From Candidatus Micrarchaeia archaeon (GTDB lineage: Archaea > Micrarchaeota > Micrarchaeia > Burarchaeales > JACRGF01): a stretch of 50,076 nucleotides of DNA. The notes below the pieces were generated by a model. It had not been told where the DNA came from. It saw only the letters and a list, made by a program, of their open reading frames with translations, and ran no database searches. Both the position numbers and the translations under genes were made by a program. Positions 30,791 to 47,190 of this stretch are shown piece after piece. The DNA is taken from contig JAWCPB010000003.1 of NCBI GenBank assembly GCA_038870455.1, positions 1-50,076 on the forward strand, given 5' to 3'. Position 1 is the stretch's first letter. Every line of letters starts with the position of its first letter.

Positions 30791-32239
30791 ATGGAGTGGT
30801 GGAAGCGGGAGGGCACCTGGTTAGTCACGCTGGTCCTCACAGCGTTCGTTTTCCGCTACCCGTTCATCTACACCCTACCGCTCAGGATGGACGAGCCGCT
30901 TTACGCCGAGCACATCGAGGAGTTCATAGAAAAGCCCGGCCTCGTCCCTGTTTTCTACAACACACTCGCGACCTGGAAGCCCATCCTCGCCTTCGCCGCG
31001 TACGCGCCGTTTGTGCTCCTGTTCAAAAGCCTAGGCGTGAGCGAGCCTGACGTGCTTTACAGGCTTCCGGCGGTTTTCTTCGGCGTGCTGAATGCGGTTG
31101 TGATGTATTTCCTGTTGATGAGGATTGATTTTGAAAAACCGCGGCGGGAAGTCGCGTTCCTCGGCGCGCTGATATACGCGACCATGCCGCTGTCCATGGA
31201 GACGGAGAGGTTGCTGCTCACGGACGCGTTCTTCGTTTTCCTCATAAACCTCGCCATGCTCTCATACACAAACGCGAAGAGCCTGAAGTGGCTGGCGGCA
31301 GCGGCGTTCCTCTCGTTCCTTGCCGCATGGACAAAGACCCTCGCAGCGCTGATGATTCCCCTTCTGGCAGTTGCGTACTGGCTCTGGAGGGAGAAAAATT
31401 TCGTGAAAAACCCGCTTTTTCTGGCGTCGCTGGCTGGCGCCCCGCTGGGAATCGCCTCCTATCTGGCGCTCACATGGAATATCCAAGGAATGCGTGGGCA
31501 GGTCGTTTACGACGTCGTGGGGAGGCTCGCCTCATATGGGGGGATGGCCCCGCTCACCGCTATGCAGTTTGTCTCGCTGACTCTCCCTTGGAACGCGTTC
31601 GGCGCGCTCGGGGCTTGGAGGTTCTGGAGAAAAAACGCGTTCTGCTCGCTCTGGCTCGCGCTCGCGGCGCCGCTCTCGCTGCTGGCCTACTTCATGCACT
31701 GGTACTTTCTGCCTGTCATTCCGGCCGTGGCTTGGTTCGCCGCGAAATACCTGGCGCACCCGCGCGTTGATCGGCTAACCGGTTTCGTGGTGGTGTTGTT
31801 GGCGTGCGTGATTTTCCTAGCGGCCACGGTCAACACGCTGATTCCAAACAGGGTCTTTGAGGAACAGAAGGAGATCGGCGTCTACCTGCAGGGAAAAAAC
31901 AAGCTGCTCTACTTCGGCGACTACGCCTCCACGCTCGTGTTCTACGCGCTGCTGGAAAACAAGTCAAAGGATTACAGGATAGTCTATGCGAGAAGCCAGC
32001 AGCTCAACGAGAGCTTGGTGGGGAACGTGACGCGCGGAAACGAGTACCAGTCGGTGGGGATGAACGAGGGGTGGTTCTCGAAAAGCCCGGTCTCCTGGGG
32101 AACGTGGAGGGGCGCTTACGAGTACATCGCTACCCAGCCGGCGGTGTGGGGGAACTACTCCAAATTCTTCGGGGAATACGAGCTCGCCAAGAACTCTTCT
32201 GAAGGTTCATACCAGGTGTTCAGGCGCACGCATGCTTAA
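30791..32239 (+). CDS. GT-C fold membrane glycosyltransferase (ArnT/PMT_2, GT39/GT83-like)
   Basis: About 11-12 TM helices. The first-loop acidic motif is LRMDEPLYAEH. There is a C-terminal soluble domain. Only the C-terminal 482 codons of track ORF 29612..32239 are real, because the upstream part is antisense to tfb. Confidence 0.75.
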   Translation: MEWWKREGTWLVTLVLTAFVFRYPFIYTLPLRMDEPLYAEHIEEFIEKPGLVPVFYNTLATWKPILAFAAYAPFVLLFKSLGVSEPDVLYRLPAVFFGVLNAVVMYFLLMRIDFEKPRREVAFLGALIYATMPLSMETERLLLTDAFFVFLINLAMLSYTNAKSLKWLAAAAFLSFLAAWTKTLAALMIPLLAVAYWLWREKNFVKNPLFLASLAGAPLGIASYLALTWNIQGMRGQVVYDVVGRLASYGGMAPLTAMQFVSLTLPWNAFGALGAWRFWRKNAFCSLWLALAAPLSLLAYFMHWYFLPVIPAVAWFAAKYLAHPRVDRLTGFVVVLLACVIFLAATVNTLIPNRVFEEQKEIGVYLQGKNKLLYFGDYASTLVFYALLENKSKDYRIVYARSQQLNESLVGNVTRGNEYQSVGMNEGWFSKSPVSWGTWRGAYEYIATQPAVWGNYSKFFGEYELAKNSSEGSYQVFRRTHA

Positions 32240-32265: not shown

Positions 32266-33702
32266 ATGGCCGAAAAAGTCACGCTGGTGCTGCCGGTCTA
32301 TAACGAGGAGCACGCGCTCGAGCACGCGGTGAAGAGCCTAAAGAAGGAGGCTCGGAAGCTGGGCAGACCCTTTGAGATAATAATCGCTGAGGACGGCTCG
32401 GTGGATGGAACATATGGGGTGGCGAAGAGACTGACCCAAGGAAACGTCAGGATGCTGCACTCAAGAAAGAGGCTGGGAAGAGGCGCGGCACTATCCAGGG
32501 CGATTGAAAAAGCGGACTCCGACATAGTCGCCTACATCGACGTGGATCTGGCCTCCAGCCTAGCAGGCCTGCGCAGACTGGTGAGGAGCGTAGAGAAAGG
32601 CGAGGCTATATCGACCGGCTCGAGGATGCTCCCAGGCGCGGCGGTGAAGCGGAGCGCCATGCGGGAAATCGCGAGCAGGGCGTATAATCTCCTCGTTCGC
32701 CTGCTGTTCGGCTCCCGCATTCACGACCACCAGTGCGGTTTCAAGGCTTTTCGCAGAAGCGCTGTGCTGCCCCTGCTCGAAGAAGTTGAGGACAGGCACT
32801 GGTTCTGGGACACGGAGCTACTCGTGCGCGCGCAGGCGAACGGCCTGCGGGTGAATGAATTCCCAATCACATGGAAGGAGGGGGAGGGCTCGAAGGTGAG
32901 GCTGTGGGCGGACGCCACGTACATGCTCGGCAGGCTCATCGCTCTCTGCTTCAAGAAACTGAAGTCGGAAAAAATCAAAGCGGGAAGAAGATTTCCTTCG
33001 CCGAGGGCCTTCCGCGAGTGGAACGAACAGATGTTCAAAAAGTTTAACACCGAGAGGCTCTATCGCCATCCAAACCCGTTTGTGGCGTGGGTGGAGAATG
33101 AAAGGGTGAGGAGAGTGGCCGCGGAAGTTGCCGGAGAGGGAAGCGTGCTCGATGTGGGCTGCGGTGGGGGGGTGATTTTAGAGAAAATTGGTGCCGAGAA
33201 AGCGGTAGGGCTGGATTTATCGAGAGAGGCACTTAGACAGGCGAGGGCAAGGGTGCCAGAAGCAAGGCTGACTTACGGCGACGCGCAAAGGCTCCCCTTC
33301 AGGGATAGCTCGTTCGACGCCGTGGTGTGCTCGGAAATAATCGAACACGTGCCGAGGCCGCGAAGAGTGTTGGAGGAAGCGGCGAGGGTGGCAAAGCCGA
33401 ACGGGAGGGTGATCGTGACGATTCCGGAGGAAAAAAACATCAACAGGGTGAAGGGTTTCCTCAAGCGTCTTGGGCTGTTCAACCTCCTGCTCCCGAATGT
33501 GCCGGAAAGGATGGAGAGCGAGTGGCACCTCCATGCGTTCAGTCTTGAGCTGTTAAAGAAAATCCTGCCGGGAGAGTTGCGTGTAGAAAAAATATTGGAC
33601 ATTCCTCCCCTTTATCCCATCCGAAGAGTTGTGGTTTTCCGAGTGCGAAAAGCTTTTAAATGGAGTGGATGTAATCCTGTTGCCAGAGGTGGTGTTGGAT
33701 GA
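32266..33702 (+). CDS. Fusion: GT2 polyprenyl-phosphate glycosyltransferase (DPM/DPG synthase/ArnC-like) plus class I SAM-dependent methyltransferase
   Basis: GT2 half: LVLPVYNEE, IIIAEDGSVDGT, YIDVDL and HDHQCGFKAF. Methyltransferase half: VLDVGCGGGVILEKIG, and LPFRDSSFDAVVCSEIIEHV. Confidence 0.85.
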   Translation: MAEKVTLVLPVYNEEHALEHAVKSLKKEARKLGRPFEIIIAEDGSVDGTYGVAKRLTQGNVRMLHSRKRLGRGAALSRAIEKADSDIVAYIDVDLASSLAGLRRLVRSVEKGEAISTGSRMLPGAAVKRSAMREIASRAYNLLVRLLFGSRIHDHQCGFKAFRRSAVLPLLEEVEDRHWFWDTELLVRAQANGLRVNEFPITWKEGEGSKVRLWADATYMLGRLIALCFKKLKSEKIKAGRRFPSPRAFREWNEQMFKKFNTERLYRHPNPFVAWVENERVRRVAAEVAGEGSVLDVGCGGGVILEKIGAEKAVGLDLSREALRQARARVPEARLTYGDAQRLPFRDSSFDAVVCSEIIEHVPRPRRVLEEAARVAKPNGRVIVTIPEEKNINRVKGFLKRLGLFNLLLPNVPERMESEWHLHAFSLELLKKILPGELRVEKILDIPPLYPIRRVVVFRVRKAFKWSGCNPVARGGVG

Positions 33703-34040
33703 GTCGGAATACCAGACTGCTTGTCTTGGTGTGCCTGCTGGTGTTCACCCAGGTGGCGGCAGCGCAAATTGTTTCAGCGCTGCAAAACATGTGCCAGACG
33801 ATCAAAGCGATCGTGCCCATGGTGGCCCTGCTGATGTTCATTATTGCAGGAGCAGTGTACGCTGCGGGCCAGGTCATGGGCGCCGAGACGAGGGCGAGGG
33901 CGAACGTGTGGAGCACTGCCATGCTTGTTGGAGGCATTATCGGCCTCATCATAGCAGCGAGCGCGCCGTACTTTGTCCAGATTTTCAGCCAGTTCTCGCT
34001 GGGAAGCACGGCGACGAGTTTCTCCTCAGTGTCCTGCTGA
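33699..34040 (+). CDS. VirB2/TrbC-type (CedA1/TedC-like) candidate pilin: Sec signal peptide plus helix-loop-helix hairpin plus Ser/Thr-rich tail
   Basis: Signal peptide MSRNTRLLVLVCLLVFTQVAAA|Q. Hydrophobic helix 1 is IKAIVPMVALLMFIIAGAVYAAG. The short basic loop is QVMGAETRARANV. Helix 2 is WSTAMLVGGIIGLIIAASAPYF. The tail is SLGSTATSFSSVSC. ATGA overlap with the GT2-MT stop. The call rests on architecture only; no sequence search was done. Confidence 0.55.
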   Translation: MSRNTRLLVLVCLLVFTQVAAAQIVSALQNMCQTIKAIVPMVALLMFIIAGAVYAAGQVMGAETRARANVWSTAMLVGGIIGLIIAASAPYFVQIFSQFSLGSTATSFSSVSC

Positions 34041-34041
34041 G

Positions 34042-34067
34042 TTTTTTCTTTCCCTCTTTTTTTCTTT
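34042..34067 (+). terminator. T-rich archaeal-type terminator/attenuator directly after the pilin gene
   Basis: ttttttctttccctctttttttcttt, followed by a small hairpin AGCCC-CCAGC-GGGCT. Confidence 0.45.
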
Positions 34068-34100
34068 CACAGCCCCCAGCGGGCTTCTTCTCTGAGTTAT

Positions 34101-34111
34101 GTTTAAAAAGG
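34101..34111 (+). promoter_or_regulatory. Putative TATA box of the ATPase/membrane-protein operon
   Basis: gtttaaaaagg lies about 26-36 nt upstream of ATG 34137. Confidence 0.4.
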
Positions 34112-34136
34112 AGCGCAGCGAAGTAGGCTCGAGAGC

Positions 34137-34949
34137 ATGGCCGTCGAGATTCCAACAAAATACTGGGCTTTCGGCTGCATGGGCGCGGGCCTCATGGCGC
34201 TCCTCGTGGGATTTACGAACTCCGGCACGAGCGCAGCGCTCGCGGCCATAGGAGCCGGCTTTTTCTTCTTCCTCAGCTTTGCATTCTACAAGTGGGGATA
34301 CATCCTCGTGCCGCTCATCACGACAGGCTCTAGAGTGGTTGAGGTGCATGAGGGAGGGTACGAGATTCCGCCCACGCAGGACGCCGTGCTGCGCGAGATA
34401 AAGGGCATCTACTACGCCAGCAAGTTCCTGCTCGTGAGAATATACGAGAGCATGACGGAGAAGAGCGAGGAGGAGAAGGCGCAGTACACCGAGTTCTTCG
34501 AGAGGGCCATCACATCGGTCAAGTACGTGACCAAGTTCTGCATGCTCGTTTATGTGAAGGACCTCACCAAGTACAGGGAACAAATCGAGACAAAGAGAAT
34601 GGAGGCGCAGCTCCGCCTCTCAAGGGAAATGGAGAAGCCCGAGCCGGACGTGCTGAAGGTGGACAGGTACGAGAGGGAAAAGGGAATGTGGGACGCCATG
34701 CTCCAGAGGCTCATGAGTGGAGTCAGGCCAATGGGAAGCGTCTGCTACGTCATGACGACAGCGACGGGCGTGACGAAAGACGCCGCGCTGGCGGCCGCGC
34801 GCGCGCAGGCGAACGAGCTGCGGGCGACGATTGCCAACGCGCTGAACGTTGAGGTGGTGCCGCTCACCGGCGAGGACATGAAGAGGTGCTTTGACTGGGA
34901 ATTCACGCTGCCGCCGACAGTGAAGGAGCTTGAGGAACAGATTTCCTAG
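34137..34949 (+). CDS. Membrane protein with an N-terminal 2-TM hairpin and ~200-aa cytoplasmic domain; candidate VirB3 / VirB4-N-terminal-domain equivalent
   Basis: TM1 is WAFGCMGAGLMALLVGF and TM2 is AALAAIGAGFFFFLSFAFY. A soluble alpha/beta plus coiled segment follows. The stop lies 8 nt before the ATPase ATG. Confidence 0.5.
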   Translation: MAVEIPTKYWAFGCMGAGLMALLVGFTNSGTSAALAAIGAGFFFFLSFAFYKWGYILVPLITTGSRVVEVHEGGYEIPPTQDAVLREIKGIYYASKFLLVRIYESMTEKSEEEKAQYTEFFERAITSVKYVTKFCMLVYVKDLTKYREQIETKRMEAQLRLSREMEKPEPDVLKVDRYEREKGMWDAMLQRLMSGVRPMGSVCYVMTTATGVTKDAALAAARAQANELRATIANALNVEVVPLTGEDMKRCFDWEFTLPPTVKELEEQIS

Positions 34950-34957
34950 GTGAAGGG

Positions 34958-36526
34958 ATGGGCAGAATAAAGATTACAGACATTCACAGCGACAAGCTGG
35001 CGGCCAGAAACATTTTCGTCAGGCCCCCTGAGCCGCCTGAGGAGTACCTCATGGGAAACCCGGCGGACAGCATCTACATCGGCAAGACGAAGATTTTTCA
35101 CGTGCCGTTTCACTGGAGCTTCCGCAACATCACAAACCCGCACATCTGCGTCATCGGCATAACGGGATCCGGCAAGAGCTACTTCGTCAAGACCTTCCTC
35201 ACGAGAGCGAGTTTTGTGTGGGGCACCAACGCGTTCATCATTGATTGGGCGGGCGAGTACAGGGATTGGGTGAAGCAGACGGGCGGCCGGGTCATTGCGC
35301 TCGGCAAGGGAAGCTACATCAACCTGCTGGACACGGCTGGCATGAAGCCCATCGACAGGATAAAGCAGATAATCAGGACGCTCGAGATACTCACGGACAT
35401 CGGCCAGTACCCAGAGCAGAGGAGGCTCACCGAAATAGCGATTGAAGAGGCGTACGTGCGGGCCGGCTTCAAGATGGCTGAAAAGATTCAGAGGGATGCG
35501 CTGGGAAACCCGCTCAAGCCCCCGACGCTCAAGGACGTGCAGAGAATACTAGAGGAAAAGCTCGCTGCTGGCACGTACGAGTTTCCGGCAGAGCTCGAGA
35601 ACGCGATATACAGGATAAAGAAATTCACCAGAGAGGGCGAGGACTTCTTTGCCGAGCAGAGCACGGTCAATCTCGAGGAGCTGACCAAGGCGGGCCTGGT
35701 CGACCTGGACCTCAGCGGGCTGCCGGACGAGGTTTTCAGAGGCCTCGCAGGTCTGTCCATGCTGCAGTTCCTGAAGGAAAAAATGAGGGAGGAAGGCTGG
35801 TCGCCTACAAAGGGGCTCAAACTGCTCGTTGTGCTTGACGAGGCGTGGAAAATAGCCAAGGACGACAACTCCGATGCCGTGATGATTGTCAGGGAGGGCA
35901 GAAAGTACCAGTTCGGGCTCATCGTGGCCAGCCAGAACCCCACTGACATCAGTGAGGCCATCTTCAGCAACGTGGGCACGACTTTCATTCTCCGCATCAA
36001 ATTCGAGAGGTTCCTGGACTATGTGCAGGCGAGCCTGAACTTCAGCGACTATATGAGGAATGAGATAAGCAGGTTCGGGGTCGGGCAGGCGGCGGTGAAC
36101 ATGGCATTCCAGACCGCCACGCCCTTCGCCGAGACGTTCCTGCTGGAGAAGGTGGAGGGCGAGGAGCCTCTCGTGGAATATTTCCTGGACATGGAGAGCG
36201 TGACAGGACCGGGGGAGGTGGAGGGCGTGGCGAAGACCTACTCGTTCGAGAAAAACGACCTCAAGAGGAGGCTGAGGAACTTCGGGCTCGAGGACGCGAG
36301 AGTTGAGGAGATCACGACGCTGTTTGACAAGAAGAACCGCCACATCGACGTGGTGTCCTTCGTTGTGCTGCTGGAGAGGTACGGCGTGATTCGCACGCAC
36401 ATCACGCAGTTCCTCAAAGACATTGGCATGGACGACCCGACCATAATAACGGTGTTCAGCAAGGCGGACTTCAAGAAGCTCGGGCTCGAGGACAGGGACA
36501 TAACCGAGGTCATACTGCAGGAGTGA
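34958..36526 (+). CDS. VirB4/TrbE/CedB-like ATPase of the FtsK-HerA superfamily (DUF87/AAA_10-like)
   Basis: Walker A is ICVIGITGSGKSY (35156-35179). Walker B is LLVVLDEAWKIA with the VirB4-typical DEAW (35837-35848). REGRKYQFGLIVASQNPTDI is present. The C-terminal extension carries two (F)GLED....EI helical repeats. Confidence 0.75.
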   Translation: MGRIKITDIHSDKLAARNIFVRPPEPPEEYLMGNPADSIYIGKTKIFHVPFHWSFRNITNPHICVIGITGSGKSYFVKTFLTRASFVWGTNAFIIDWAGEYRDWVKQTGGRVIALGKGSYINLLDTAGMKPIDRIKQIIRTLEILTDIGQYPEQRRLTEIAIEEAYVRAGFKMAEKIQRDALGNPLKPPTLKDVQRILEEKLAAGTYEFPAELENAIYRIKKFTREGEDFFAEQSTVNLEELTKAGLVDLDLSGLPDEVFRGLAGLSMLQFLKEKMREEGWSPTKGLKLLVVLDEAWKIAKDDNSDAVMIVREGRKYQFGLIVASQNPTDISEAIFSNVGTTFILRIKFERFLDYVQASLNFSDYMRNEISRFGVGQAAVNMAFQTATPFAETFLLEKVEGEEPLVEYFLDMESVTGPGEVEGVAKTYSFEKNDLKRRLRNFGLEDARVEEITTLFDKKNRHIDVVSFVVLLERYGVIRTHITQFLKDIGMDDPTIITVFSKADFKKLGLEDRDITEVILQE

Positions 36527-36530
36527 TGAC

Positions 36531-36890
36531 ATGCCCAAAACGGTTTGCATAATCTGTGGCCGGCGGAGGGCGGGCGCGCCCGTGGTGGACGATGCGGTGA
36601 TACGGACCATCCGGTGGGCCAAGCGCAAGCTCGGCGTGGCGCAGGGAAACAAGCTTGTGGTATGCCCCGAGGACATGGAGGAGCACCTGAAGAGAAGGCA
36701 ACGGTTCGAGAAGCGCCTGATCCAGTACGGCGCGCTGTTCTTTGTGCTGGCGGTCGCCATGCTCCTGCTGTCCGGCTCGCTGGCGGGCGTGCTGGTGATT
36801 GTGCTCATGGCCGCCTTCATCATGGCGCTGGTGATCGCTGTGAACTACACCCCGCATGTTAGAAAGACAGGGAGGGAAAGGCGTGGCTGA
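36531..36890 (+). CDS. Small membrane protein with an N-terminal Cys-rich (CxxC...C) domain and 2 TM helices
   Basis: Contains VCIICGRRRAG...VVCPEDMEEH, then ALFFVLAVAMLLLSGSLAGVLVIVLMAAFIMALVIAV. It starts 4 nt after the ATPase stop. Confidence 0.55.
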   Translation: MPKTVCIICGRRRAGAPVVDDAVIRTIRWAKRKLGVAQGNKLVVCPEDMEEHLKRRQRFEKRLIQYGALFFVLAVAMLLLSGSLAGVLVIVLMAAFIMALVIAVNYTPHVRKTGRERRG

Positions 36891-37617
36891 GGAAAAAACG
36901 CCGGAAGCGCTCGAGCCGAGAGTTGACGGCTTCCGCTTCGCCGCGAAGAGGAAGAAGGGGGTGGAGGAGGTTACCAAGGCGCTCTCGCCGCTTTCGTTCC
37001 TGGAAGTCGCCCCGGAGGGGGACGTGGTCGCGCTCATCAACGTCGAGTCAAGGGATATTTCGAAAAACCCGTACTCTTTCACGCTCACTTACCTCAAGCC
37101 CGAGAGCATAGAGCTCATGTACACGATACCCCCGGGCACGAGCCCGCGCAAGAGGCGCGTGGATGTCTTCCGCTTCCTCCTCAACCTCCTCACGCTGCTC
37201 GACGAGTGCTATGAGGTCGACCGCAAGGAGTTCTACCAGCTCATCGACGCGGCGTTTAAGGGAGTCGGCGAGTACGTGTCCTCGTCGTACGACGAGATTT
37301 TCGCGAAGTACGATGCGTGCAGGAGCGAGAACGAGATTCTCAGGAAGAGGGTGGAGAGCCTGCAGTCCACCAACGACCGCCTCGGAAAGGACAACATGGA
37401 GCTCAAGGAAAAGAACGACGCCCTCGCCCTCAGGCTGCGCGAGCTCGAGAGCTACAGCGACGACGTGCTCATGCTCAAGATACAGGAGTGGCTGCTGGAG
37501 CACAAGAACGAGATAAACATAGGCGAGTTCAGCAAAGTGCATAAGGTGCGCGAGCAGAGGGTGGAGCAGGTGCTGAACAGGATGGTGACCGAGGGGCTGC
37601 TAGCGGTCCGGGAGTAG
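36856..37617 (+). CDS. Soluble protein: N-terminal domain, central coiled coil, C-terminal winged helix
   Basis: The coiled coil is ENEILRKRVESLQSTNDRLGKDNMELKEKNDALALRLRELE. The C-terminal wHTH is INIGEFSKVHKVREQRVEQVLNRMVTEGLLAV. The alternative start GTG 36883 is preceded by GGAGG (36871-36875). Confidence 0.6.
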   Translation: MLERQGGKGVAEEKTPEALEPRVDGFRFAAKRKKGVEEVTKALSPLSFLEVAPEGDVVALINVESRDISKNPYSFTLTYLKPESIELMYTIPPGTSPRKRRVDVFRFLLNLLTLLDECYEVDRKEFYQLIDAAFKGVGEYVSSSYDEIFAKYDACRSENEILRKRVESLQSTNDRLGKDNMELKEKNDALALRLRELESYSDDVLMLKIQEWLLEHKNEINIGEFSKVHKVREQRVEQVLNRMVTEGLLAVRE

Positions 37618-37622
37618 GTGAC

Positions 37623-40253
37623 ATGCCCCGGAGGAATGAGAGGGACATCCTGAGCGCGAAGCCGGCCAAGAAGTCCTTCGTATTCGAGGTCAGGAAGAGG
37701 TTCGCGCACGTGAGAAAGTTCATCCCGGCCGCGCCCCCGAAGCTCGACGCATCCACGATAGCCGGCCTGCTCGGCGCGTACCTGAGGCGGAGGCGGGGCG
37801 ACAGGCAGGCTGAGGAGGAGTTCCGCCACCGCACTGCGCCCATGACGAAAGTGCTGCTGGGGCGGCTCATGTTCATCCTCATCGCGCTCTTCGTCATAGC
37901 CCTGCTCCTCGTGGGGGCTTTCTTCTTCATCGTCCTCAGTGCCCCCCCGCCCCCGCCTCCCCAGCCGGTGGTGGTGGCGCCCACCGTGAGCTACAGCGTG
38001 CAGAAGTACGACGTGCTGTCGTTCGGGCCAGGCAGCGAGTACGCCGCGTTTGCGACCGTGCCCATGCAGGGAAGGGACGTGCAGGAAGTGAGGCTCCACC
38101 TCGACCTGTTCGCCGACGAGGTGCCGCAGGACATCTTCCTGCTAAAGTCGCGCAGGGAACAGGCCACGCAGTACGCGGAGTTCAAGAAGTATCTGGAGGC
38201 CGAGCTGGCCAAGCAGGGCCTCAGGGCCAACGAACTGCACATAGACCAGCTGAGGAGGCTGCCCAGGGAAAGCAGGGCGGTAATAATAGTGCCCTCGGGC
38301 TTCTTCCCCGCAGTTTTCCTCGGCCTCGTCGACCCGGATTTCGACGTGCGCACGCTGCTCGGCCAGGGAAACGTCATCATCTACATGGGCCACGGGTTCG
38401 ACAGGGGAGCGATTTTCGAGCGGGAGGGCAGGGTGAGGGTGAACGCTGATGCCGCGGCAAAACGCCTTGGATTCGGCATCGGCCCGCCCACCGGAGCACA
38501 CAGCGAAGACGGGTACAACCTCAGGGACCCGCAGTACAGCATAGTGCCCGTAGAGAGGGAGCTGCCCCTGGCTTCGGTGCACGGCTCGATGTACAGCGTG
38601 AACATCGGCAGCGGCTACATGCTTTTCCTGCCCCAGCCTCTTGACAGCGGATGGCTGAACGGCGCGCAGGCTGCGCAGGATGTTGCTAGGCTCATTCAGG
38701 AGGCCGCGTGGCAGAGGGCGTTCAGGGGTAAGCTCGTGGCCGTGGGAGAGAAAAGGGTGGCAGCGGCGAATGGCTCGGTGTCGGCCAATCCGCTCCTGCT
38801 CTCCACGCCTTATCCCAAGCAGAATGCATGGGGAAGGCTTCAGGTCAGCGTGGTGGGGCTCGACAACAGAACTTACGGGCGGACCATCTTCCTGAAGTAC
38901 GACAACGTGGTGAGAGGCCAGCTCAGGCACTCCACCTCGGCGCTTCCCACCGAACTGAGCGGGCAGAGGCTGACGGTGAGCGGTGAGTTCAATGAGCCGG
39001 AGAGCGTGTGGAGGCTCCGCAAGCCAGTGAATGTCTATCTCGTGTTCTACAACTCGACCTCGCGCGTTTCGTCGCGCCTCATGCAGGCCGAGCCGGTCAT
39101 CCCGACCGCGCTCTATCCCATCTCGGCGGACGTGGAAATCACGGTGCCCAGCGGAGACTATTACCTGAGAGTGGAGGACGAGGATGGGAACGTGTTTGCC
39201 CAGAGCTACCTCAGAGTTCCGGAGATAAACATCACGAAGGAAGTGCAGAACTTCGGCGCGGGGTATTTCTCCTTCGACGTGAAGGCGGACGGAGTGCCCG
39301 CGGACTTGAGGAACGTGCGCGTGTCGCTCGACGGACTGCAGGAGACCGTGCTGGCAACGCGCGAATCGAGGGTGACGAGCGGGGCCAGGGTGCTCGAGTA
39401 TGTTTTCCAAGGAAGGATAGGCGAGGGCGAGCACGCTTTCCTCATAGAGTACGCCGGACAGAAGACGACCATCACCGGGACTTACACGTTTCCGAAAAAC
39501 TGGTGGGACAACCCGCTCATGCAGGTGGGGCTCGTCTTCACCGCAATAATATTCGTTATGGGCGTGCTGCTGCGCAGGCCCGAGCCCGTGATGTACGGCA
39601 TTGACGTGCCCGACTTCCCGCCCACGGCCAAGGTGCTCATCCCGCTGCCGCCAAAAACGGTCACCGACCTTTTCGACACGCTCGAGGCCGAGTACGGCTG
39701 GAAGTACATGCCGCTCGAGCCGAGGGAGCTCAAGAACGGATTCAGGAAAGTCGTTTACAAAGGAAGGGGCATTCTCATCGGCGACTACAACCTCGAAAAG
39801 CTGCTCGAGAAGCTCGAGGCCAAGGGCCTGGTGGAGAGCGCGCTGGGACTGTGGGGTCTCAAAAAGTGGGTGCAGGAAAGCAGGAAGAGCATGAGGTACC
39901 TCGCCGTATTCAGGAAGCTCAGGACTATTTTCGTGAACAACGCGGTCAAGTTCACGGACTTCGGCGAAAGGCAGGACTGCGACACGGCGATAAGCATTCC
40001 CGAAACCGTTTTCGTGCACATCTACGACGGCGACGCCGTACTGCCGAGAGTGCTGGCGAGCGCGCAGAAGGGCGCGAGCGTGCTCGTGTTCGCGGACAAC
40101 CTCGAGAGGGAGGTTTTCAAGCGAAAGCTCTACTCGCCAGAGCCCCTGCTCGTCGCGCTCAAGCTCATGAAGGACCAGGGAAGGCTCGTCCTCACAGACA
40201 CCGAGTGGTTCGAGAGAAAGATAATAAAGAAGGAAAAGGCAGGCAGGAGCTAA
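37623..40253 (+). CDS. 876-aa bitopic membrane protein: cytoplasmic N-tail, TM, ~520-aa extracellular domain, TM, ~230-aa cytoplasmic C-domain
   Basis: TM1 is LLGRLMFILIALFVIALLLVGAFFFIVL, followed by a PPPPPPPQP linker. The exodomain carries sequons (NGS, NRT, NST, NIT). TM2 is LMQVGLVFTAIIFVMGVLL. No recognisable family. Confidence 0.65.
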   Translation: MPRRNERDILSAKPAKKSFVFEVRKRFAHVRKFIPAAPPKLDASTIAGLLGAYLRRRRGDRQAEEEFRHRTAPMTKVLLGRLMFILIALFVIALLLVGAFFFIVLSAPPPPPPQPVVVAPTVSYSVQKYDVLSFGPGSEYAAFATVPMQGRDVQEVRLHLDLFADEVPQDIFLLKSRREQATQYAEFKKYLEAELAKQGLRANELHIDQLRRLPRESRAVIIVPSGFFPAVFLGLVDPDFDVRTLLGQGNVIIYMGHGFDRGAIFEREGRVRVNADAAAKRLGFGIGPPTGAHSEDGYNLRDPQYSIVPVERELPLASVHGSMYSVNIGSGYMLFLPQPLDSGWLNGAQAAQDVARLIQEAAWQRAFRGKLVAVGEKRVAAANGSVSANPLLLSTPYPKQNAWGRLQVSVVGLDNRTYGRTIFLKYDNVVRGQLRHSTSALPTELSGQRLTVSGEFNEPESVWRLRKPVNVYLVFYNSTSRVSSRLMQAEPVIPTALYPISADVEITVPSGDYYLRVEDEDGNVFAQSYLRVPEINITKEVQNFGAGYFSFDVKADGVPADLRNVRVSLDGLQETVLATRESRVTSGARVLEYVFQGRIGEGEHAFLIEYAGQKTTITGTYTFPKNWWDNPLMQVGLVFTAIIFVMGVLLRRPEPVMYGIDVPDFPPTAKVLIPLPPKTVTDLFDTLEAEYGWKYMPLEPRELKNGFRKVVYKGRGILIGDYNLEKLLEKLEAKGLVESALGLWGLKKWVQESRKSMRYLAVFRKLRTIFVNNAVKFTDFGERQDCDTAISIPETVFVHIYDGDAVLPRVLASAQKGASVLVFADNLEREVFKRKLYSPEPLLVALKLMKDQGRLVLTDTEWFERKIIKKEKAGRS

Positions 40254-42138: not shown

Positions 42139-42657
42139 CTACTTGAGCTTCAGCACGGCAGCCCCGTACGCCGCCCCGCCGATGCCGCCCAGCACGGCGC
42201 CCATCACGATGTTGAGGGGAAGCATGCAGACAAAGCCGAGCCCGCCCACCACGCCGGACAGGAGGCCGCCAAACGCAGCGCCGGCCGCTCCGCCTCCGGC
42301 CGCTCCGCCCGCGATGCCCAGCCCCACGCCGAGCCCGAAATTGAGAAACTGCCAGACGAGCATGGCGACTGCGCCCGCCACCGCGCCGCCGATTGCGGAG
42401 TCAGCAAGAGACTTGAGCGTGCCCCGGGCGAGCGCGGCAGTCGCCGCGCCCGAAGCCGCCACGAGCACATAGCTGAGAATGCAGATGGGTATGCCGAGAA
42501 TGCACCCGGCGGTCGCGGTGAAAGCCGCCACGAGGCTTCCAATGGCCGGAATGAGTCTGGCTATGAAAGTGAGGATGCCGAAAATGTTTCCGAGAACGGC
42601 ATTCACAACGCCGACGACAACACCCGTGCCAGCGCCTGCAACAAACTTGTCAGTCAT
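42139..42657 (-). CDS. Gly/Ala-rich glycine-zipper polytopic membrane protein, unknown function
   Basis: 172 aa from ATG 42657. Contains repeated GxxxG/AxxxG runs (GLGVGLGIAGGAAGGGAAGAAFGGLLSGVVGGLG). Confidence 0.5.
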   Translation of the reverse strand: MTDKFVAGAGTGVVVGVVNAVLGNIFGILTFIARLIPAIGSLVAAFTATAGCILGIPICILSYVLVAASGAATAALARGTLKSLADSAIGGAVAGAVAMLVWQFLNFGLGVGLGIAGGAAGGGAAGAAFGGLLSGVVGGLGFVCMLPLNIVMGAVLGGIGGAAYGAAVLKLK

Positions 42658-42679
42658 CCAAACAACACCCCCGTGTCTT

Positions 42680-42736
42680 TGCGGGAACAACGCCTTTCCT
42701 GCTTTTAAACTTATCTAACCGGCTTCTGTTCCCGCA
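42680..42736. repeat. Perfect 10-bp inverted repeat TGCGGGAACA ... TGTTCCCGCA bracketing an A/T box (gcttttaaactta)
   Basis: The arms are at 42680-42689 and 42727-42736. They lie in the 232-bp divergent intergenic region between the Gly-zipper gene and the XRE regulator gene. Confidence 0.6.
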
Positions 42737-45802: not shown

Positions 45803-46213
45803 ATGCGTGGAGGACTAGCGCTGAGCTGGAGAAAGATTCCAGAGAGGTACAGGCTCGAGGGAAGCAGGTGCGAAACATGCGGGACGAACTATTTTCCCTC
45901 GCGCATCGTCTGCCCAAAGTGCAGGAGGAAAGGAAAAATCGTCGATGCGTTCTTTTCCGGTGAGGGAAGGATCTATTCCTATACGACAGTGTATTCGCCT
46001 CCGGCCGGCTTCGAGCTCGCCGCGCCCTATGTGCTGGCCATCGTCGAGCTGGCCGAGGGTCCGCGCCTGACCAGCCAGATAGTCGCAAAGCATGGGGAGA
46101 TTGACATCGGCACGCCGGTGAGAGTGGTGTTCAGGAAAATACAGGAGGACGGGGCAGAGGGGCTCATCCACTACGGGTTCAAGTTCAAACCCGTTCAGGC
46201 AAAGCAGGACTAG
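45803..46213 (+). CDS. DUF35 OB-fold/zinc-ribbon protein (scaffold of the archaeal thiolase/HMGCS complex)
   Basis: Contains CETCGTNYFPSRIVCPKCRRKG followed by an OB fold (YSYTTVY...LAIVELAEGPRLTSQI). Confidence 0.85.
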   Translation: MRGGLALSWRKIPERYRLEGSRCETCGTNYFPSRIVCPKCRRKGKIVDAFFSGEGRIYSYTTVYSPPAGFELAAPYVLAIVELAEGPRLTSQIVAKHGEIDIGTPVRVVFRKIQEDGAEGLIHYGFKFKPVQAKQD

Positions 46214-46848
46214 ACCCTGACGACGTAAGTAACGCGGTAGGTTCTTTTTCCGCCTCTCACTCCGGCGAGTTTGAACGATGGCTTGAGCACATAGCCGAAG
46301 CCCGCAAGGACCTGCTGGAGGGCGCTTCTCGAGCCCACGTAGAGGTCGATGCCTTCCCTCAGCTCCTCTGTTTTCGCGATGAAAGTGCTCCTCTCCAGCG
46401 CGGCGGCGAGTTTTTTGCGCGCGCGCTCGACCGCGGCGGCGCTTCCCCTCAGCTGCAGGATGGCCTCGTAGTAGCCGCTTCTCGTCCTGCGGCAGTCGCA
46501 GCACATCGTCTCCTCCCGCTTGACGCGGGCCTCCCTCTCCACCTCGACGAAGGAAGAATCCGCCTTTACCAGCAGAATGATTTTGGCCGGCTCGCCGAAT
46601 TTTACTCTCGCCGAGATTATTTCTGCCGGGCTCCTGCACCTCGCCGTGATGAAATCGCCGAGCTCGCGCTCGGAGGCCACGCGCCACTCGCCCTTCAGCC
46701 TGAAGCGCCCGCACGCCCGACAGCGCTGGAGGATTACCTCATCCGGACAGGTCACGGATAGCGTGGCGGCAAAGCACTTCTCGCACAGGCTGCCGACGAA
46801 ATTGCGCCGCGTGTTGGTGATGCCGCAGCGTGGGCAGATTTTTTCCAT
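46210..46848 (-). CDS. nmd3: NMD3-family ribosome biogenesis protein homologue
   Basis: Four Cys pairs: CPRCG, CEKC, CRACG and CCDC. Also GYYEAILQLRG. Confidence 0.8.
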   Translation of the reverse strand: MEKICPRCGITNTRRNFVGSLCEKCFAATLSVTCPDEVILQRCRACGRFRLKGEWRVASERELGDFITARCRSPAEIISARVKFGEPAKIILLVKADSSFVEVEREARVKREETMCCDCRRTRSGYYEAILQLRGSAAAVERARKKLAAALERSTFIAKTEELREGIDLYVGSRSALQQVLAGFGYVLKPSFKLAGVRGGKRTYRVTYVVRV

Positions 46849-46939
46849 AACACCACGGGGAGGGTCAGGAGGAGCCTGGAACTGGGGAGGGGCGAAGCCC
46901 CTCCGCGGTTCGGGCCGCAGCGTGGGCAGATTTTTTCCA
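46822..46939. repeat. Perfect 26-bp direct repeat (46822-46847 and 46914-46939) duplicating the nmd3 start, flanking copy B of the structured element (46857-46913)
   Basis: gccgcagcgtgggcagattttttcca occurs twice, 92 bp apart. Between the copies lie GGGGAGGGTCAGGAGGAGCCT, the hairpin GGAGGGGC-GAA-GCCCCTCC and GGTTCGG, which resemble 2119-2177. Confidence 0.85.
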
Positions 46940-46992: not shown

Positions 46993-47190
46993 GTGTATGA
47001 GGAGGACGCAGCTGGCATAAACTCGGAGATGCGCTACATCACGCTCGAGCTCATGAAGCTCGCGGCCAAGAGGAACAAGCCGTTCGAACAGGTCGCCGCC
47101 GAGTTCATCACAAACGTTTATGCGGTGAGGCGGCTCATCAAGCGGCGCGTGCAGGCGAGGGGAAGAAAGCCGAGTTCTGCGAGAGAGTGA
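46993..47190 (+). CDS. Hypothetical small basic protein
   Basis: 65-aa ORF (GTG start; internal ATG at 47029). A TATA-like gtttaaatt lies at 46962-46970. No recognisable domain. Confidence 0.3.
   Translation: MYEEDAAGINSEMRYITLELMKLAAKRNKPFEQVAAEFITNVYAVRRLIKRRVQARGRKPSSARE

What the first reader, a model, noticed from the sequence alone, without database searches (positions are those of the whole stretch)
33699..40253. Chromosomal VirB2-like pilin plus VirB4-like ATPase cluster: candidate archaeal conjugation-type (Ced/Ted-like) pilus or DNA-transfer machine
Six co-oriented, tightly packed genes combine the two hallmark parts of conjugative type IV secretion pili. (i) A 113-aa Sec-signal protein whose mature part is a hydrophobic helix, short basic loop, hydrophobic helix hairpin, the VirB2/TrbC/TraA architecture. 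(ii) An FtsK-HerA superfamily ATPase with the VirB4-typical Walker B DEAW and an RxGRKY...SQ box, preceded 8 nt upstream by a 2-TM protein in the position VirB3 usually occupies. Three further proteins have no recognisable family: a Zn-ribbon membrane protein, a coiled-coil wHTH protein and an 876-aa bitopic protein. In Archaea, VirB2-like pili with VirB4/HerA-like ATPases are established for the crenarchaeal Ced and Ted DNA-import systems and for conjugative plasmids. Here the cluster lies among core genes in a chromosome with the same GC-rich codon style by eye. No relaxase, VirD4 coupling protein, integrase or att-like repeats are in the window, and the accessory gene set does not resemble anything I recognise. 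That makes it a plausible undescribed variant, for DNA uptake or exchange, cell-cell contact or adhesion.
Basis: partly seen in the sequence, partly recalled or inferred. Interest (0 to 1): 0.85.

Follow-up and report, generated by a model that had tools for sequence, protein, structure and literature searches.

The report
Conjugation-like pilus machine in tiny archaea
A chromosome of a tiny symbiotic archaeon (Micrarchaeota, DPANN) carries a conjugation-type pilin gene next to a five-gene membrane ATPase operon that is conserved across the phylum and descends from archaeal DNA-transfer machines; I found no description of it, and it may be how these cells exchange material with their hosts.

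Summary
Six tightly packed + strand genes lie at 33699-40253.

- **Pilin (g1).** It passes Pfam's own threshold for T4SS_pilin. It has a signal peptide, two hydrophobic helices and a basic loop.
- **ATPase (g3).** It is a catalytically intact HerA/VirB4-branch ATPase. Its nearest named relatives are CedB/CedD.
- **Organism.** The window is a Micrarchaeota (DPANN) chromosome.

Three details need correcting.

1. The conserved unit is five genes, g2-g6. Order, orientation and sizes are the same in all 54 Micrarchaeota loci with enough DNA. The pilin is a separate, multi-copy gene. It lies next to the operon in only about a fifth of loci.
2. g2 is not just a VirB3-like stub. It is the membrane anchor plus N-terminal domain of a CedB/VirB4-type ATPase, split from the motor (hhalign 91%).
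3. The ATPase is CedB-like, not a canonical VirB4.

Micrarchaeota also carry two paralogous modules. Type B reads pilin, polytopic membrane protein, g2', ATPase', g5', and its pilin is homologous to g1 (98.4%).

g4, g5 and g6 match no known family, and the g6 model failed.

The cluster is not a HerA-NurA repair system, a plasmid or integrative element, or a known defence system.

Best reading: a domesticated Ced/Ted-type type IV secretion derivative. Its function is untested. [quoted passage not shown]

The parts
33654..33661 (+). TTTTAAAT, a possible TATA box for the pilin gene. It lies inside the 3' end of the upstream GT2-methyltransferase gene, 38-45 nt before the g1 ATG.
   Evidence: Read from the sequence. 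Inference only; not tested.
33699..34040 (+). g1: VirB2/T4SS-type pilin precursor, 113 aa. It has a signal peptide (cleavage predicted after VAAA, residue 22), helix 1 (~38-60), a basic loop AETRARANVW (62-71), helix 2 (~72-96) and a Ser/Thr-rich tail ending in Cys113.
   Evidence: Pfam T4SS_pilin 29.6 bits against a cut-off of 26.6, covering 3-71 of 71 profile positions; TrbC/VirB2 26.0 bits against 27.9. 7 of 13 family members match T4SS_pilin and 5 of 13 match TrbC. C32, E63 and W71 are invariant and C113 nearly so. The family is homologous to the 81-aa pilins of type B modules (hhalign 98.4%).
34042..34068 (+). T-rich tract just after the g1 stop codon. It is a probable archaeal oligo-T transcription terminator.
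   Evidence: Read from the sequence. Inference.
34102..34109 (+). TTTAAAAA, a probable TATA box of the g2-g6 operon, 28-35 nt upstream of the g2 ATG.
   Evidence: Read from the sequence. It fits the pilin being absent upstream of g2 in most relatives. Inference.
34137..34949 (+). g2: membrane anchor (two N-terminal TM helices) plus a cytoplasmic N-terminal domain of CedB/VirB4 type. It is the split-off front half of the ATPase.
   Evidence: Found in 77 of 80 loci and 37-61% identical to the window protein in all but one of 23 aligned orthologues (23% in L079). hhalign of the whole family against the N-terminus (columns 19-271) of ~880-aa CedB-like proteins: 88.6%, E 2.6e-6. Soluble domain alone against their N-terminal domain: 91.1%, P 1e-6, with controls at 0.1-0.2%. 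No Pfam, NCBIfam or PDB sequence match of its own.
34958..36526 (+). g3: soluble ATPase of the HerA/VirB4 branch of the FtsK-HerA superfamily, 522 aa. There is no HAS-barrel. [quoted passage not shown]
   Evidence: Pfam DUF87, AAA_10 and P-loop_TraG are above their cut-offs. Best NCBIfam matches are CedD 73.6 and CedB 70.0 bits, far below the cut-offs. More than 1100 homologues were found; the best 120 are 65-97% identical over 95-100% of the query. AlphaFold pLDDT is 79.4. By Foldseek the best TM-scores are to the VirB4 C-terminal domain 4ag5/4ag6 (TMt 0.74-0.76), then DndH 7es4 (0.72) and HerA 4d2i (0.54-0.56). Catalytic residues are invariant.
36531..36890 (+). g4: small membrane protein, 119 aa. 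It has an N-terminal Cys-rich (zinc-ribbon-like) basic cytoplasmic part and two TM helices. It occurs only in type A modules.
   Evidence: Found in 70 of 80 loci. C6 is invariant; C9 (65 of 70) and C45 (64 of 70) are nearly so. Family HMM hits occur only next to type A ATPases. No significant Pfam or NCBIfam match.
36856..37617 (+). g5: soluble partner protein, 253 aa. It has an N-terminal alpha/beta domain, a coiled coil (~140-200) and a probable C-terminal winged helix. A homologue follows the ATPase in all three paralogous module types.
   Evidence: Found in 69 of 80 type A loci and in 60 of 63 type B, C and D loci. The family profile against PDB gives coiled-coil matches and the CdvB winged helix 2xvc at E 0.0028. 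Weak Pfam matches to EAP30 and MarR_2. The winged-helix assignment is tentative.
37623..40253 (+). g6: 876-aa bitopic envelope protein. It has a basic cytoplasmic N-terminus, TM1 (~76-106), a Pro-rich linker, a ~520-aa ectodomain, TM2 (~630-653) and a well-conserved ~220-aa cytoplasmic C-terminal domain. It occurs only in type A modules.
   Evidence: Found in 63 of 80 loci; missing mainly where the contig ends. 18-43% identical among orthologues. No Pfam or PDB match; only weak Ig-like hints at 484-600. The AlphaFold model is unusable (pLDDT 31.9 from a 3-sequence alignment).

Best explanation
The window is a chromosomal stretch of a Micrarchaeota (DPANN) archaeon. It encodes a domesticated derivative of the archaeal Ced/Ted branch of type IV secretion (conjugation) machinery.

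**Anatomy (shown).**
- The motor is a CedB/VirB4-type ATPase split into two genes. g2 supplies two TM helices and the N-terminal domain. g3 supplies the catalytic domain.
- g2 and g3 are co-transcribed with three lineage-specific partners: g4 (Cys-rich 2-TM protein), g5 (coiled coil with a probable winged helix) and g6 (large bitopic envelope protein).
- A VirB2-type pilin gene, g1, lies just upstream under its own promoter.

**Mechanism (inferred).**
- A g3 hexamer docks on the membrane through g2.
- The TM helices of g2, g4 and g6 form the membrane platform or channel.
- The g6 ectodomain is the only large extracellular part. It would span the space to or through the S-layer.
- ATP hydrolysis would pull Sec-inserted, signal-peptide-cleaved pilin out of the membrane to build a hollow VirB2-type pilus, move a substrate through the complex, or both.
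- The substrate is most likely DNA. The nearest characterised relatives, Ced and Ted, import DNA, and g5 may bind nucleic acid.

Because these organisms are host-dependent, the machine probably works at the contact with a host or sister cell.
For: **Identity of the parts**
- The pilin passes the Pfam T4SS_pilin threshold. It meets the same criterion used to call VirB2-like pilins in Patescibacteria.
- The best curated matches of the ATPase are CedD and CedB, then monoderm VirB4 families. The same holds for ten of its more distant relatives.
- The g2 soluble domain aligns to the N-terminal domain of ~880-aa CedB-like ATPases at 91% probability, with clean negative controls.
- The ATPase model superposes best on the VirB4 C-terminal domain (TMt 0.75, rmsd ~4 A).

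**Context**
- g2-g6 are syntenic in 54 of 54 informative loci from at least four named lineages: Anstonellales, Burarchaeum, Gugararchaeum and Micrarchaeum.
- A paralogous module in the same phylum reads pilin, polytopic membrane protein, g2', ATPase', g5'. Its 81-aa pilin is homologous to g1 (98.4%, E 6e-15). Two paralogous motors therefore each sit beside paralogous pilins.
- The full-length thaumarchaeal relative has the Ced-like layout: small 2-helix protein, polytopic protein, ATPase.
- Types A, B and C form one clade (99 of 100 bootstraps).
- At least 32 assemblies hold both a type A module and pilin genes (tables).

**Chromosomal, not mobile.**
Against: - Type A has no VirB6/CedA-like polytopic channel protein. 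None occurs in the window either.
- The pilin is unlinked in about 78% of loci and has its own promoter and terminator. Its tie to this particular module is statistical, not physical.
- g4, g5 and g6 have no counterpart in any known type IV secretion system.
- The g6 model failed. No pilin model could be made.
- By sequence the ATPase domain scores about as well against defence-type HerA (72 bits) as against CedB/CedD.
- All curated family cut-offs are missed by a factor of roughly ten.
- 63-97% identity across a phylum is unusually high for a conjugation or host-contact system. It fits a housekeeping role better.
- No expression or functional data exist for any gene in the cluster.
Confidence: 0.55

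Rival explanations
1. It is a housekeeping membrane-anchored DNA pump. The g2-g6 complex would act like FtsK in chromosome segregation, septum clearance or another essential internal task. The neighbouring pilin gene would be an unrelated surface protein that happens to lie nearby in some lineages.
For: - The ATPase is extremely conserved: 63-97% identity, with very short type A branches.
- The module is present in every informative locus.
- Inteins sit at the P-loop and Walker B sites, which is typical of indispensable enzymes.
- The partner g5 has a coiled coil and a probable winged helix reminiscent of the CdvB/ESCRT winged helix.
- The pilin is unlinked in most genomes and separately transcribed.
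- Type A has no VirB6-like channel.
Against: - The paralogous type B motor is directly flanked by a homologous pilin and a polytopic membrane protein.
- All nearest relatives are CedB-like and associated with pilin and channel genes.
- The pilin sits immediately upstream on the same strand in about 12-15 divergent loci. That is far more than chance for a ~1 Mb genome.
- The 520-aa ectodomain of g6 is hard to explain for a purely internal DNA pump.
Confidence: 0.2
2. It is a host-interaction conduit whose cargo is not DNA. As proposed for the Patescibacteria type IV secretion system, the machine would build a pilus or channel for attachment and for taking up or delivering proteins, lipids, nucleotides or other metabolites at the host interface.
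For: - Micrarchaeota are host-dependent DPANN archaea.
- Pilins occur as tandem arrays of 2-4 divergent copies at several loci per genome. Patescibacteria likewise carry VirB2 arrays of 2-11 genes, one of which is reported as essential in Ca. S. epibionticum ML1.
- No relaxase or coupling protein was seen.
- The g6 ectodomain evolves fast (18-43% identity), as expected for a surface-exposed contact protein.
- Nanohaloarchaeal SPEARE proteins also combine a giant ectodomain with a VirB4-like ATPase.
Against: - The only experimentally characterised close relatives, Ced and Ted, move DNA.
- The g5 winged helix hints at nucleic-acid binding.
- This window encodes Trp and aromatic amino-acid biosynthesis genes, so this organism is not extremely reduced.
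- There is no direct evidence for any cargo.
Confidence: 0.2
3. It is a HerA-type DNA-repair helicase operon (HerA-NurA-like end resection), as some database records name the ATPase.
For: - Some source annotations read 'DNA double-strand break repair helicase HerA'.
- DUF87 is the top Pfam match.
- HerA structures top the PDB sequence search.
Against: - There is no room for the HAS-barrel. The P-loop starts at residue 67 and the model shows only short strands before it.
- HerA matches are local, covering about residues 190-380.
- NCBIfam HerA models score 48-51 bits against cut-offs of 800-970.
- All the neighbours are membrane proteins, with no NurA, Mre11 or Rad50 among g1-g6 or the ten flanking window ORFs scanned; neighbours in the other loci were not scanned.
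- g2 supplies a CedB-type TM anchor and N-terminal domain.
Confidence: 0.02
4. It is part of an integrated conjugative element or plasmid remnant, or a HerA-based anti-phage defence island, rather than a core cellular system.
For: - Type IV secretion genes are usually mobile.
- The best Foldseek E-value is to the DndH/DptH C-domain.
- PADLOC HerA and DndH models hit the ATPase.
Against: - The gene order is the same across the phylum, and ATPase divergence tracks lineages.
- GC content equals that of the flanks.
- The flanks are TFB, Trm1, aromatic amino-acid and glycosyltransferase genes.
- There are no att-like repeats and no second FtsK/VirD4-like ATPase in the window.
- Plasmid relatives are at most 28% identical. 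Nothing close occurs in IMG/VR.
- No PADLOC hit falls on any partner protein.
Confidence: 0.03

Closest known systems
Ced system of Sulfolobales and Aeropyrum (CedA, the pilin CedA1, CedA2, CedB, plus CedD/CedE): chromosomal DNA import
   Same: - It is chromosomal and domesticated, with no relaxase or coupling protein.
- It has a VirB2-like two-helix pilin.
- Its ATPase has a TM anchor, a VirB4-like N-terminal domain and a HerA-clade catalytic domain. CedD and CedB are the best curated matches to g3 and to its relatives.
- The idea that the N-terminal domain function can be divided between polypeptides has a precedent in CedB plus CedD (PMC11868833).
   Different: - Scores are about ten times below the CedB and CedD cut-offs.
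- The N-terminal domain and the ATPase are separate genes.
- The type A module has no CedA-like polytopic channel.
- The pilin has a cleavable signal peptide, which CedA1 lacks.
- g4, g5 and g6 have no Ced counterparts.
- The host lineage is DPANN, not Thermoproteota.
- There is no evidence of UV induction or DNA import.
Ted system of Thermoproteales (TedA, TedB, TedC)
   Same: - It has a signal-peptide-processed VirB2-like pilin (TedC), like g1.
- It has a VirB4-like ATPase and is chromosomal.
- Its components can be dispersed over distal loci (PMC9905601), as the Micrarchaeota pilins are.
   Different: - No TedA/VirB6-like protein occurs here.
- No ParA/VirC1, HerA or Rad50 genes are nearby.
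- Sequence relatedness to TedB and TedC could not be tested, because no reference sequences were available.
[quoted passage not shown]
   Same: - It is a chromosomal system conserved across the phylum in an ultra-small, host-dependent lineage.
- It lacks a relaxase.
- Its VirB2-like pilins are detected by the same Pfam models and occur in tandem arrays of divergent copies, often away from virB4.
   Different: - It is bacterial. It has canonical full-length VirB4 plus VirB3, VirB6, VirB8 and VirD4 homologues.
- The Micrarchaeota motor is CedB-like and split, and its accessory set is unrelated.
- The resemblance is functional and ecological. Common descent has not been shown.
Nanohaloarchaeal SPEARE-type giant proteins with a VirB4/TraG-like ATPase domain
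   Same: It is a DPANN system that couples a large membrane-anchored ectodomain protein to a VirB4-family ATPase. It is proposed to act at the host interface (PMC10266531).
   Different: - There, the ectodomain and the ATPase are fused in one giant protein.
- No pilin is reported there.
- No sequence relation to g6 was tested.
Canonical bacterial VirB4 (TrwK, TraC, the MPF-FATA members PrgJ/TraE) with VirB2, VirB3, VirB6 and VirB8
   Same: - The fold of the catalytic domain matches: the best TM-score is to 4ag5/4ag6.
- The Pfam families AAA_10 and P-loop_TraG, both built on conjugative VirB4-type ATPases, are above their cut-offs.
- It is associated with a VirB2-family pilin.
   Different: - TIGR00929 VirB4_CagE scores 29 bits against a cut-off of 643.
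- It is not a single ~800-aa polypeptide.
- No VirB3, VirB6, VirB8 or VirB1 homologues were found.

Membership tests
VirB2/TrbC/T4SS_pilin family (conjugative pilins) | A match to the family profile at or above the curated threshold | tested here: met
   PF18895 T4SS_pilin scores 29.6 bits against a cut-off of 26.6, covering 3-71 of 71 profile positions. PF04956 TrbC/VirB2 scores 26.0, just under 27.9. 7 of 13 family members match PF18895. The PDB profile search found TrwL only at E 1.1, which is not significant.
VirB2/TrbC/T4SS_pilin family (conjugative pilins) | A small protein with an N-terminal leader followed by two hydrophobic helices joined by a short basic loop | tested here: met
   Hydrophobic segments at 4-29 (signal), 30-62 and 68-97. 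The loop AETRARANVW is conserved.
VirB2/TrbC/T4SS_pilin family (conjugative pilins) | Helical-hairpin 3-D structure that assembles with lipid into a hollow pilus | not tested
Filament assembly needs cryo-EM.
Canonical VirB4 ATPase | A single polypeptide with N-terminal and C-terminal domains that reaches the curated VirB4 model cut-offs | tested here: not met
   TIGR00929 scores 29 bits against 643.1, TraC 47.7 against 567, and CD1110 51.3 against 325. The protein starts about 55 residues before the P-loop.
Canonical VirB4 ATPase | Fold of the catalytic C-terminal domain | tested here: met
   Foldseek against 4ag5/4ag6: E ~2e-12, TMq 0.55-0.56, TMt 0.74-0.76, rmsd 3.9-4.3 A. These are the highest TM-scores in the list. 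HerA and DndH match with similar E-values, so this test is not exclusive.
Canonical VirB4 ATPase | Neighbouring VirB3, VirB6 and VirB8 homologues | tested here: not met
   g2, g4, g5 and g6 have no such Pfam or NCBIfam matches. No polytopic protein occurs in the type A operon.
Ced system (CedB/CedD ATPase with CedA and CedA1) | NCBIfam equivalog cut-offs for CedB or CedD | tested here: not met
   CedD scores 73.6 against 600 and CedB 70.0 against 700. They are nonetheless the top-ranked families for g3. CedB ranks first for eight of ten distant relatives and second to fourth for the other two.
Ced system (CedB/CedD ATPase with CedA and CedA1) | Architecture of TM anchor, VirB4-like N-terminal domain and HerA-clade ATPase domain | tested here: met
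   Met in split form. g2 (2 TM plus N-terminal domain) aligns to the N-terminus of ~880-aa proteins (88.6% and 91.1%). The best curated match of two of those proteins scanned (P0161, P0168) is CedB over profile positions 13-587 and 75-587 of 590. That the N-terminal part of that match is itself significant is an inference.
Ced system (CedB/CedD ATPase with CedA and CedA1) | A CedA/VirB6-like polytopic channel protein in the system | tested here: not met
   It is absent from the window and from type A loci. The paralogous type B module has a 310-330-aa protein with 5-6 TM helices in that position. Its homology to CedA or VirB6 was not detected (CedA E 0.48).
Ced system (CedB/CedD ATPase with CedA and CedA1) | DNA-damage-induced import of chromosomal DNA | not testable with these tools
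   This needs genetics or transfer assays in a co-culture.
HerA-NurA DNA-repair helicase | N-terminal HAS-barrel, a neighbouring NurA/Mre11/Rad50 gene, and the curated HerA cut-offs | tested here: not met
   HerA models score 48-51 bits against 800-970, with local matches only. The P-loop is at residue 67. All operon partners are membrane or coiled-coil proteins.
Conjugative plasmid or integrative conjugative element | Relaxase, VirD4 coupling protein, integrase and att repeats; variable presence; deviant composition | tested here: not met
   There is no second FtsK/VirD4-like ATPase in the window and no flanking repeats. GC is uniform, chromosomal synteny is conserved, and no close plasmid or viral relatives exist. 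Relaxase and integrase were not searched for in every window ORF, because only 10 flanking ORFs were scanned.
HerA-based anti-phage defence systems (Sir2-HerA, DUF4297-HerA, Dnd/DptH) | A HerA-family ATPase paired with a known effector or partner model | tested here: not met
   PADLOC gives generic HerA, DndH and mad8 hits (at most 72 bits) on g3 only. g1, g2, g4, g5 and g6 have none.

The most novel reading that the evidence does not exclude
[quoted passage not shown] It would be an envelope-spanning conduit through which Micrarchaeota dock to and draw DNA, nucleotides or other material from host archaea. Oligomers of the novel g6 protein would form the envelope platform. They could correspond to the ~21-nm barrel seen by cryo-ET in the envelope of the cultured Micrarchaeon ARM-1, where intercellular nanotubes dock (PMC11329633). 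On this reading the two great radiations of ultra-small symbionts independently domesticated conjugation machinery for a host-dependent life.
Probability: 0.25. Interest if true: 0.9.

Novelty: new variant of a known kind. Interest (0 to 1): 0.75.

Why it matters
How DPANN archaea physically obtain what they need from their hosts is an open question. Cryo-ET has shown intercellular tubes and envelope barrels in a Micrarchaeota co-culture, with no genes assigned to them.

This cluster gives a concrete, phylum-wide candidate gene set:
- a split CedB/VirB4-type motor;
- three unknown partner proteins;
- multi-copy VirB2-type pilins.

These genes can be tested directly in the existing co-cultures.

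The finding also extends the known range of domesticated, conjugation-derived machines in Archaea from Thermoproteota (Ced, Ted) to DPANN. It reveals three paralogous modules in one phylum. It offers a striking parallel to the essential type IV secretion system and pilin arrays of the bacterial ultra-small symbionts, the Patescibacteria.

For type IV secretion evolution it adds two points:
- a natural case in which the VirB4-type N-terminal domain and the ATPase are separate genes;
- a module that appears to work without a VirB6-like channel.

Tried and rejected
**Approaches that failed or gave nothing**
- g6 homologue searches, both single-sequence and 25-sequence profile, returned only three near-identical proteins. 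The AlphaFold model of g6 was therefore useless (pLDDT 31.9), and I did not run a fold search on it.
g2 and g1 could therefore not be modelled.
- Profile searches of the g2, g6 and type B polytopic families against PDB sequences found nothing.
- The pilin profile found TrwL only at E 1.1.
- Pfam and NCBIfam gave nothing significant for g2, g4, g5, g6, the ATPase C-terminal domain, or the type B and thaumarchaeal polytopic proteins.
- No component families are homologous to each other. This includes pilin against the polytopic protein, the relation reported for CedA1 and CedA.
- A first tree script timed out and a second crashed. The third worked.

**Hypotheses considered and rejected**
- HerA-NurA repair.
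- Integrative conjugative element or plasmid.
- Known defence system.
- Virus-borne module.

**Literature**
- Searches for DPANN or Micrarchaeota together with VirB4, T4SS, Ced or HerA found no description of this system.
- That covers only the open-access library that could be searched.

Full report
**1. What is in the sequence**

ORF listing confirms six co-oriented + strand genes at 33699-40253, with gaps of 96, 8, 4, -35 and 5 nt.
- Composition is uniform with the rest of the window (GC 0.56-0.63).
- The flanks are ordinary chromosomal genes. Upstream lie TrpE, EPSP synthase, Trm1, TFB, a PMT-like membrane glycosyltransferase and a GT2-methyltransferase fusion. Downstream lie GT2, GT4, an HTH protein and DUF2070.
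- No long direct repeats bracket the cluster.
- The ATPase has more than 1100 database homologues. The best 120 are 65-97% identical over 95-100% of the query. Wherever they carry a name, it is Micrarchaeota, Micrarchaeia, Anstonellales or Gugararchaeum, apart from two 'uncultured archaeon' records and one 'Asgardarchaeia' bin (P0106).
- The window is therefore a chromosome of a DPANN archaeon of that phylum. NCBI now calls the phylum Microcaldota.

**2. The parts**

*g1 (113 aa)*
- It scores above Pfam's gathering threshold for T4SS_pilin (29.6 against 26.6, full profile coverage). It falls just below the threshold for TrbC/VirB2 (26.0 against 27.9).
- It has a signal peptide with an A-x-A site, two hydrophobic helices and a conserved basic loop, AETRARANVW.
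- It has an invariant Cys near the mature N-terminus and a nearly invariant C-terminal Cys.
- It meets the criterion used to call VirB2-like pilins in Patescibacteria.

*g3 (522 aa)*
- It has invariant Walker A, Walker B and RxGRKY...SQ motifs.
- It passes the cut-offs of DUF87, AAA_10 and P-loop_TraG.
- Its best curated matches are CedD (73.6 bits) and CedB (70.0), then monoderm VirB4 families. HerA models match only locally. Every score is far below the family cut-off.
- Its AlphaFold model (pLDDT 79.4) gives the highest TM-scores with the VirB4 C-terminal domain 4ag5/4ag6 (TMt 0.74-0.76). DndH (0.72) and HerA (0.54-0.56) follow with similar E-values.
- There is no room for a HerA HAS-barrel, because the P-loop begins at residue 67.

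*g2 (270 aa)*
- It has two N-terminal TM helices and a ~205-residue soluble domain. It has no database family.
- A full HMMER scan of 1.8 billion representative proteins with g3 found ~880-aa relatives, 28-34% identical in the ATPase domain. In the two scanned (P0161, P0168), the best curated match is CedB, over profile positions 13-587 and 75-587 of 590.
- The g2 family aligns collinearly with the N-terminal ~270 residues of those proteins (hhalign 88.6%, E 2.6e-6).
- Without the TM helices the match holds (91.1%, P 1e-6). Controls against their ATPase and C-terminal regions give 0.1-0.2%. All other pairings among the cluster's families give below 4%, apart from one 9-column TM match.
- g2 plus g3 is therefore a split TM-anchored CedB/VirB4-type ATPase.

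*g4 (119 aa)*: a conserved Cys-rich N-terminal part (C6, C9, C45) and two TM helices.

*g5 (253 aa)*: an alpha/beta domain, a coiled coil and a probable C-terminal winged helix (weak matches only).

*g6 (876 aa)*
- It runs cytoplasmic N-terminus, TM, Pro-rich linker, ~520-aa ectodomain, TM, then a conserved ~220-aa cytoplasmic domain.
- It matches nothing known, and its model failed.

**3. Conservation and operon structure**

- Eighty species-level Micrarchaeota genomes hold an ATPase 53-97% identical to g3.
- In all 54 loci with enough DNA, g2-g3-g4-g5-g6 recur in the same order and orientation with the same sizes.
- By contrast, a pilin homologue lies just upstream in only about 12 loci. Most loci have no small two-TM ORF within 3.5 kb upstream.
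- In the window, a T-rich tract follows the g1 stop codon. TTTAAAAA lies 28-35 nt before the g2 start. g1 therefore looks like a separate transcription unit. This is an inference.

The pilin family itself:
- It was found in 79 loci. All are titled Micrarchaeota or a lineage within it (Micrarchaeia, Anstonellaceae, Bilamarchaeum, Micrarchaeum), except about ten titled only 'archaeon' or 'uncultured archaeon' and four titled 'ainarchaeum'.
- 108 pilin ORFs fall in 74 of these loci, often as tandem sets of 2-4 and at several loci per genome.
- About 15 loci adjoin a g2-g6 operon.
- At least 32 assemblies hold both the operon and pilins. At least 20 of these have the two unlinked (tables).

**4. 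Paralogous modules strengthen the type IV secretion link**

Searching with more distant relatives showed that the same genomes carry further modules. ATPases cluster into types A (the window's), B and C, about 41-45% identical between types.
- Each type is monophyletic (100 of 100 bootstraps). Together they form one clade (99 of 100) apart from other relatives (NJ tree).
- Type B reads: 81-aa two-helix protein, 310-330-aa protein with 5-6 TM helices, g2-like, ATPase, g5-like.
- Type C is ATPase plus g5-like only.
- The 81-aa proteins are homologous to the window's pilin family over the whole mature pilin (hhalign 98.4%, E 6e-15). They lack a signal peptide, as CedA1 does.
- The full-length thaumarchaeal relative sits behind an 84-aa two-helix protein and a 290-aa polytopic protein. 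That is the Ced/Ted layout described in PMC9905601.
- Two paralogous motors each lie beside paralogous pilins, so the pilin-ATPase association is not coincidental.
- g4 and g6 are specific to type A. The polytopic protein is specific to type B, and its homology to CedA or VirB6 could not be shown.

**5. What it is not**

- It is not HerA-NurA: there is no HAS-barrel, no nuclease partner, and only local HerA matches.
- It is not a plasmid or an integrative conjugative element. Synteny is phylum-wide, composition is uniform and there are no repeats. The best plasmid relatives are 24-28% identical DUF87 or TraC proteins. Nothing close occurs in IMG/VR.
- It is not a known defence system. PADLOC hits only the ATPase, generically.

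One caution applies. By sequence, CedB-type catalytic domains, including the thaumarchaeal ones, lie nearer to HerA than to bacterial VirB4. The Ced literature says the same. 'VirB4-like' should therefore be read as 'CedB-like member of the HerA/VirB4 branch'.

**6. Mechanism**

*Shown:* the homologies, topologies, synteny and paralogy described above.

*Inferred:*
- A g3 hexamer is tethered by g2 to a membrane platform made of the TM helices of g2, g4 and g6.
- The g6 ectodomain is the sole large extracellular element.
- ATP-driven extraction of processed pilin builds a VirB2-type pilus, moves a substrate through the complex, or both.
- The substrate is most likely DNA, by analogy with Ced and Ted and because of the g5 winged helix.

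*Main rival:* a housekeeping DNA pump. It is favoured by the extreme conservation of the ATPase, by inteins at its P-loop and Walker B sites in some orthologues, and by the loose pilin linkage.

*Second alternative:* a non-DNA host-contact conduit, as proposed for Patescibacteria.

**7. Novelty**

- The Ced/Ted paper never mentions DPANN.
- The December 2025 type IV secretion review lists only Sulfolobus plasmids and pT33-3 under Archaea.
- A cryo-ET study of a Micrarchaeota co-culture reports nanotubes and a 21-nm envelope barrel without assigning genes.
- A nanohaloarchaeal study notes VirB4-like domains in SPEARE proteins.
- Other searches found nothing.

Within the searchable literature, this Micrarchaeota system is undescribed. 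I rate it a new variant of a known kind, of high interest because it is directly testable in existing co-cultures. The function remains unproven.

Noticed in passing
L073:2665-5829 (+); also proteins P0124 and P0125: Some orthologues of the type A ATPase are interrupted in frame by inteins with LAGLIDADG homing endonucleases. The inteins sit at two different sites: the P-loop (P0124) and Walker B (P0125, L073).
   Followed up: yes
e.g. L012:9587-9901, L018:9604-9912, L030:9956-10246 (+): In 24 of 80 type A loci, an extra small gene right after the ATPase encodes a stand-alone copy (36-60% identical) of the ATPase's C-terminal ~100-residue helical domain (residues 416-520). That domain has no known family.
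   Followed up: partly
e.g. L224:6037-10135, L205:5971-10078, L179:6009-10119 (type B); L164:7995-10277 (type C): Micrarchaeota genomes hold two further paralogous modules. Type B reads 81-aa pilin, 5-6-TM protein, g2-like, ATPase, g5-like, and is often followed by purD and a secreted transglutaminase-like protein. Type C is ATPase plus g5-like only. At least 25 assemblies have type A together with B or C.
   Followed up: yes
window 30791-32239 and 32266-33702 (+); pilin loci L081-L159: The pilin gene overlaps the stop codon of a GT2-methyltransferase gene, which follows a PMT-like (protein O-mannosyltransferase family) membrane protein. GT2 and PMT-like genes recur next to unlinked pilin genes (22 and 18 of 79 loci). 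The pilins have a Ser/Thr-rich tail and a conserved Cys pair. Together these suggest O-glycosylation and a disulfide linking the pilin's ends.
   Followed up: partly
L008:16943-17500 (+): One pilin homologue carries a ~90-residue, extremely Cys-rich C-terminal extension.
   Followed up: no
L232:4666-8727 (+); also L231: Thaumarchaeota/Nitrosopumilales MAGs encode an 84-aa two-helix protein, a 290-aa polytopic protein and a 913-aa TM, N-terminal domain, ATPase and C-terminal-extension protein. This is a Ced/Ted-like set, and its ATPase is the closest full-length relative of g2 plus g3. Neighbouring winged-helix genes hint at an integrated element.
   Followed up: partly
L039, L144, L147, L155, L197: A few loci with the same operon or pilins come from bins titled 'Candidatus ainarchaeum sp.' (presumably Iainarchaeum). 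Either the bins are mislabelled or the system extends to a second DPANN phylum.
   Followed up: no
window 42139-42690 (-): A 183-aa Gly/Ala-rich, very hydrophobic ORF with no Pfam match lies just downstream of the glycosyltransferase genes.
   Followed up: no
window 46822-46847 and 46914-46939: An exact 26-nt direct repeat (GCCGCAGCGTGGGCAGATTTTTTCCA), with the two copies starting 92 nt apart. The first copy lies at the 5' end of the - strand ORF 46210-46848 and the second in the spacer before the + strand ORF at 46993.
   Followed up: no
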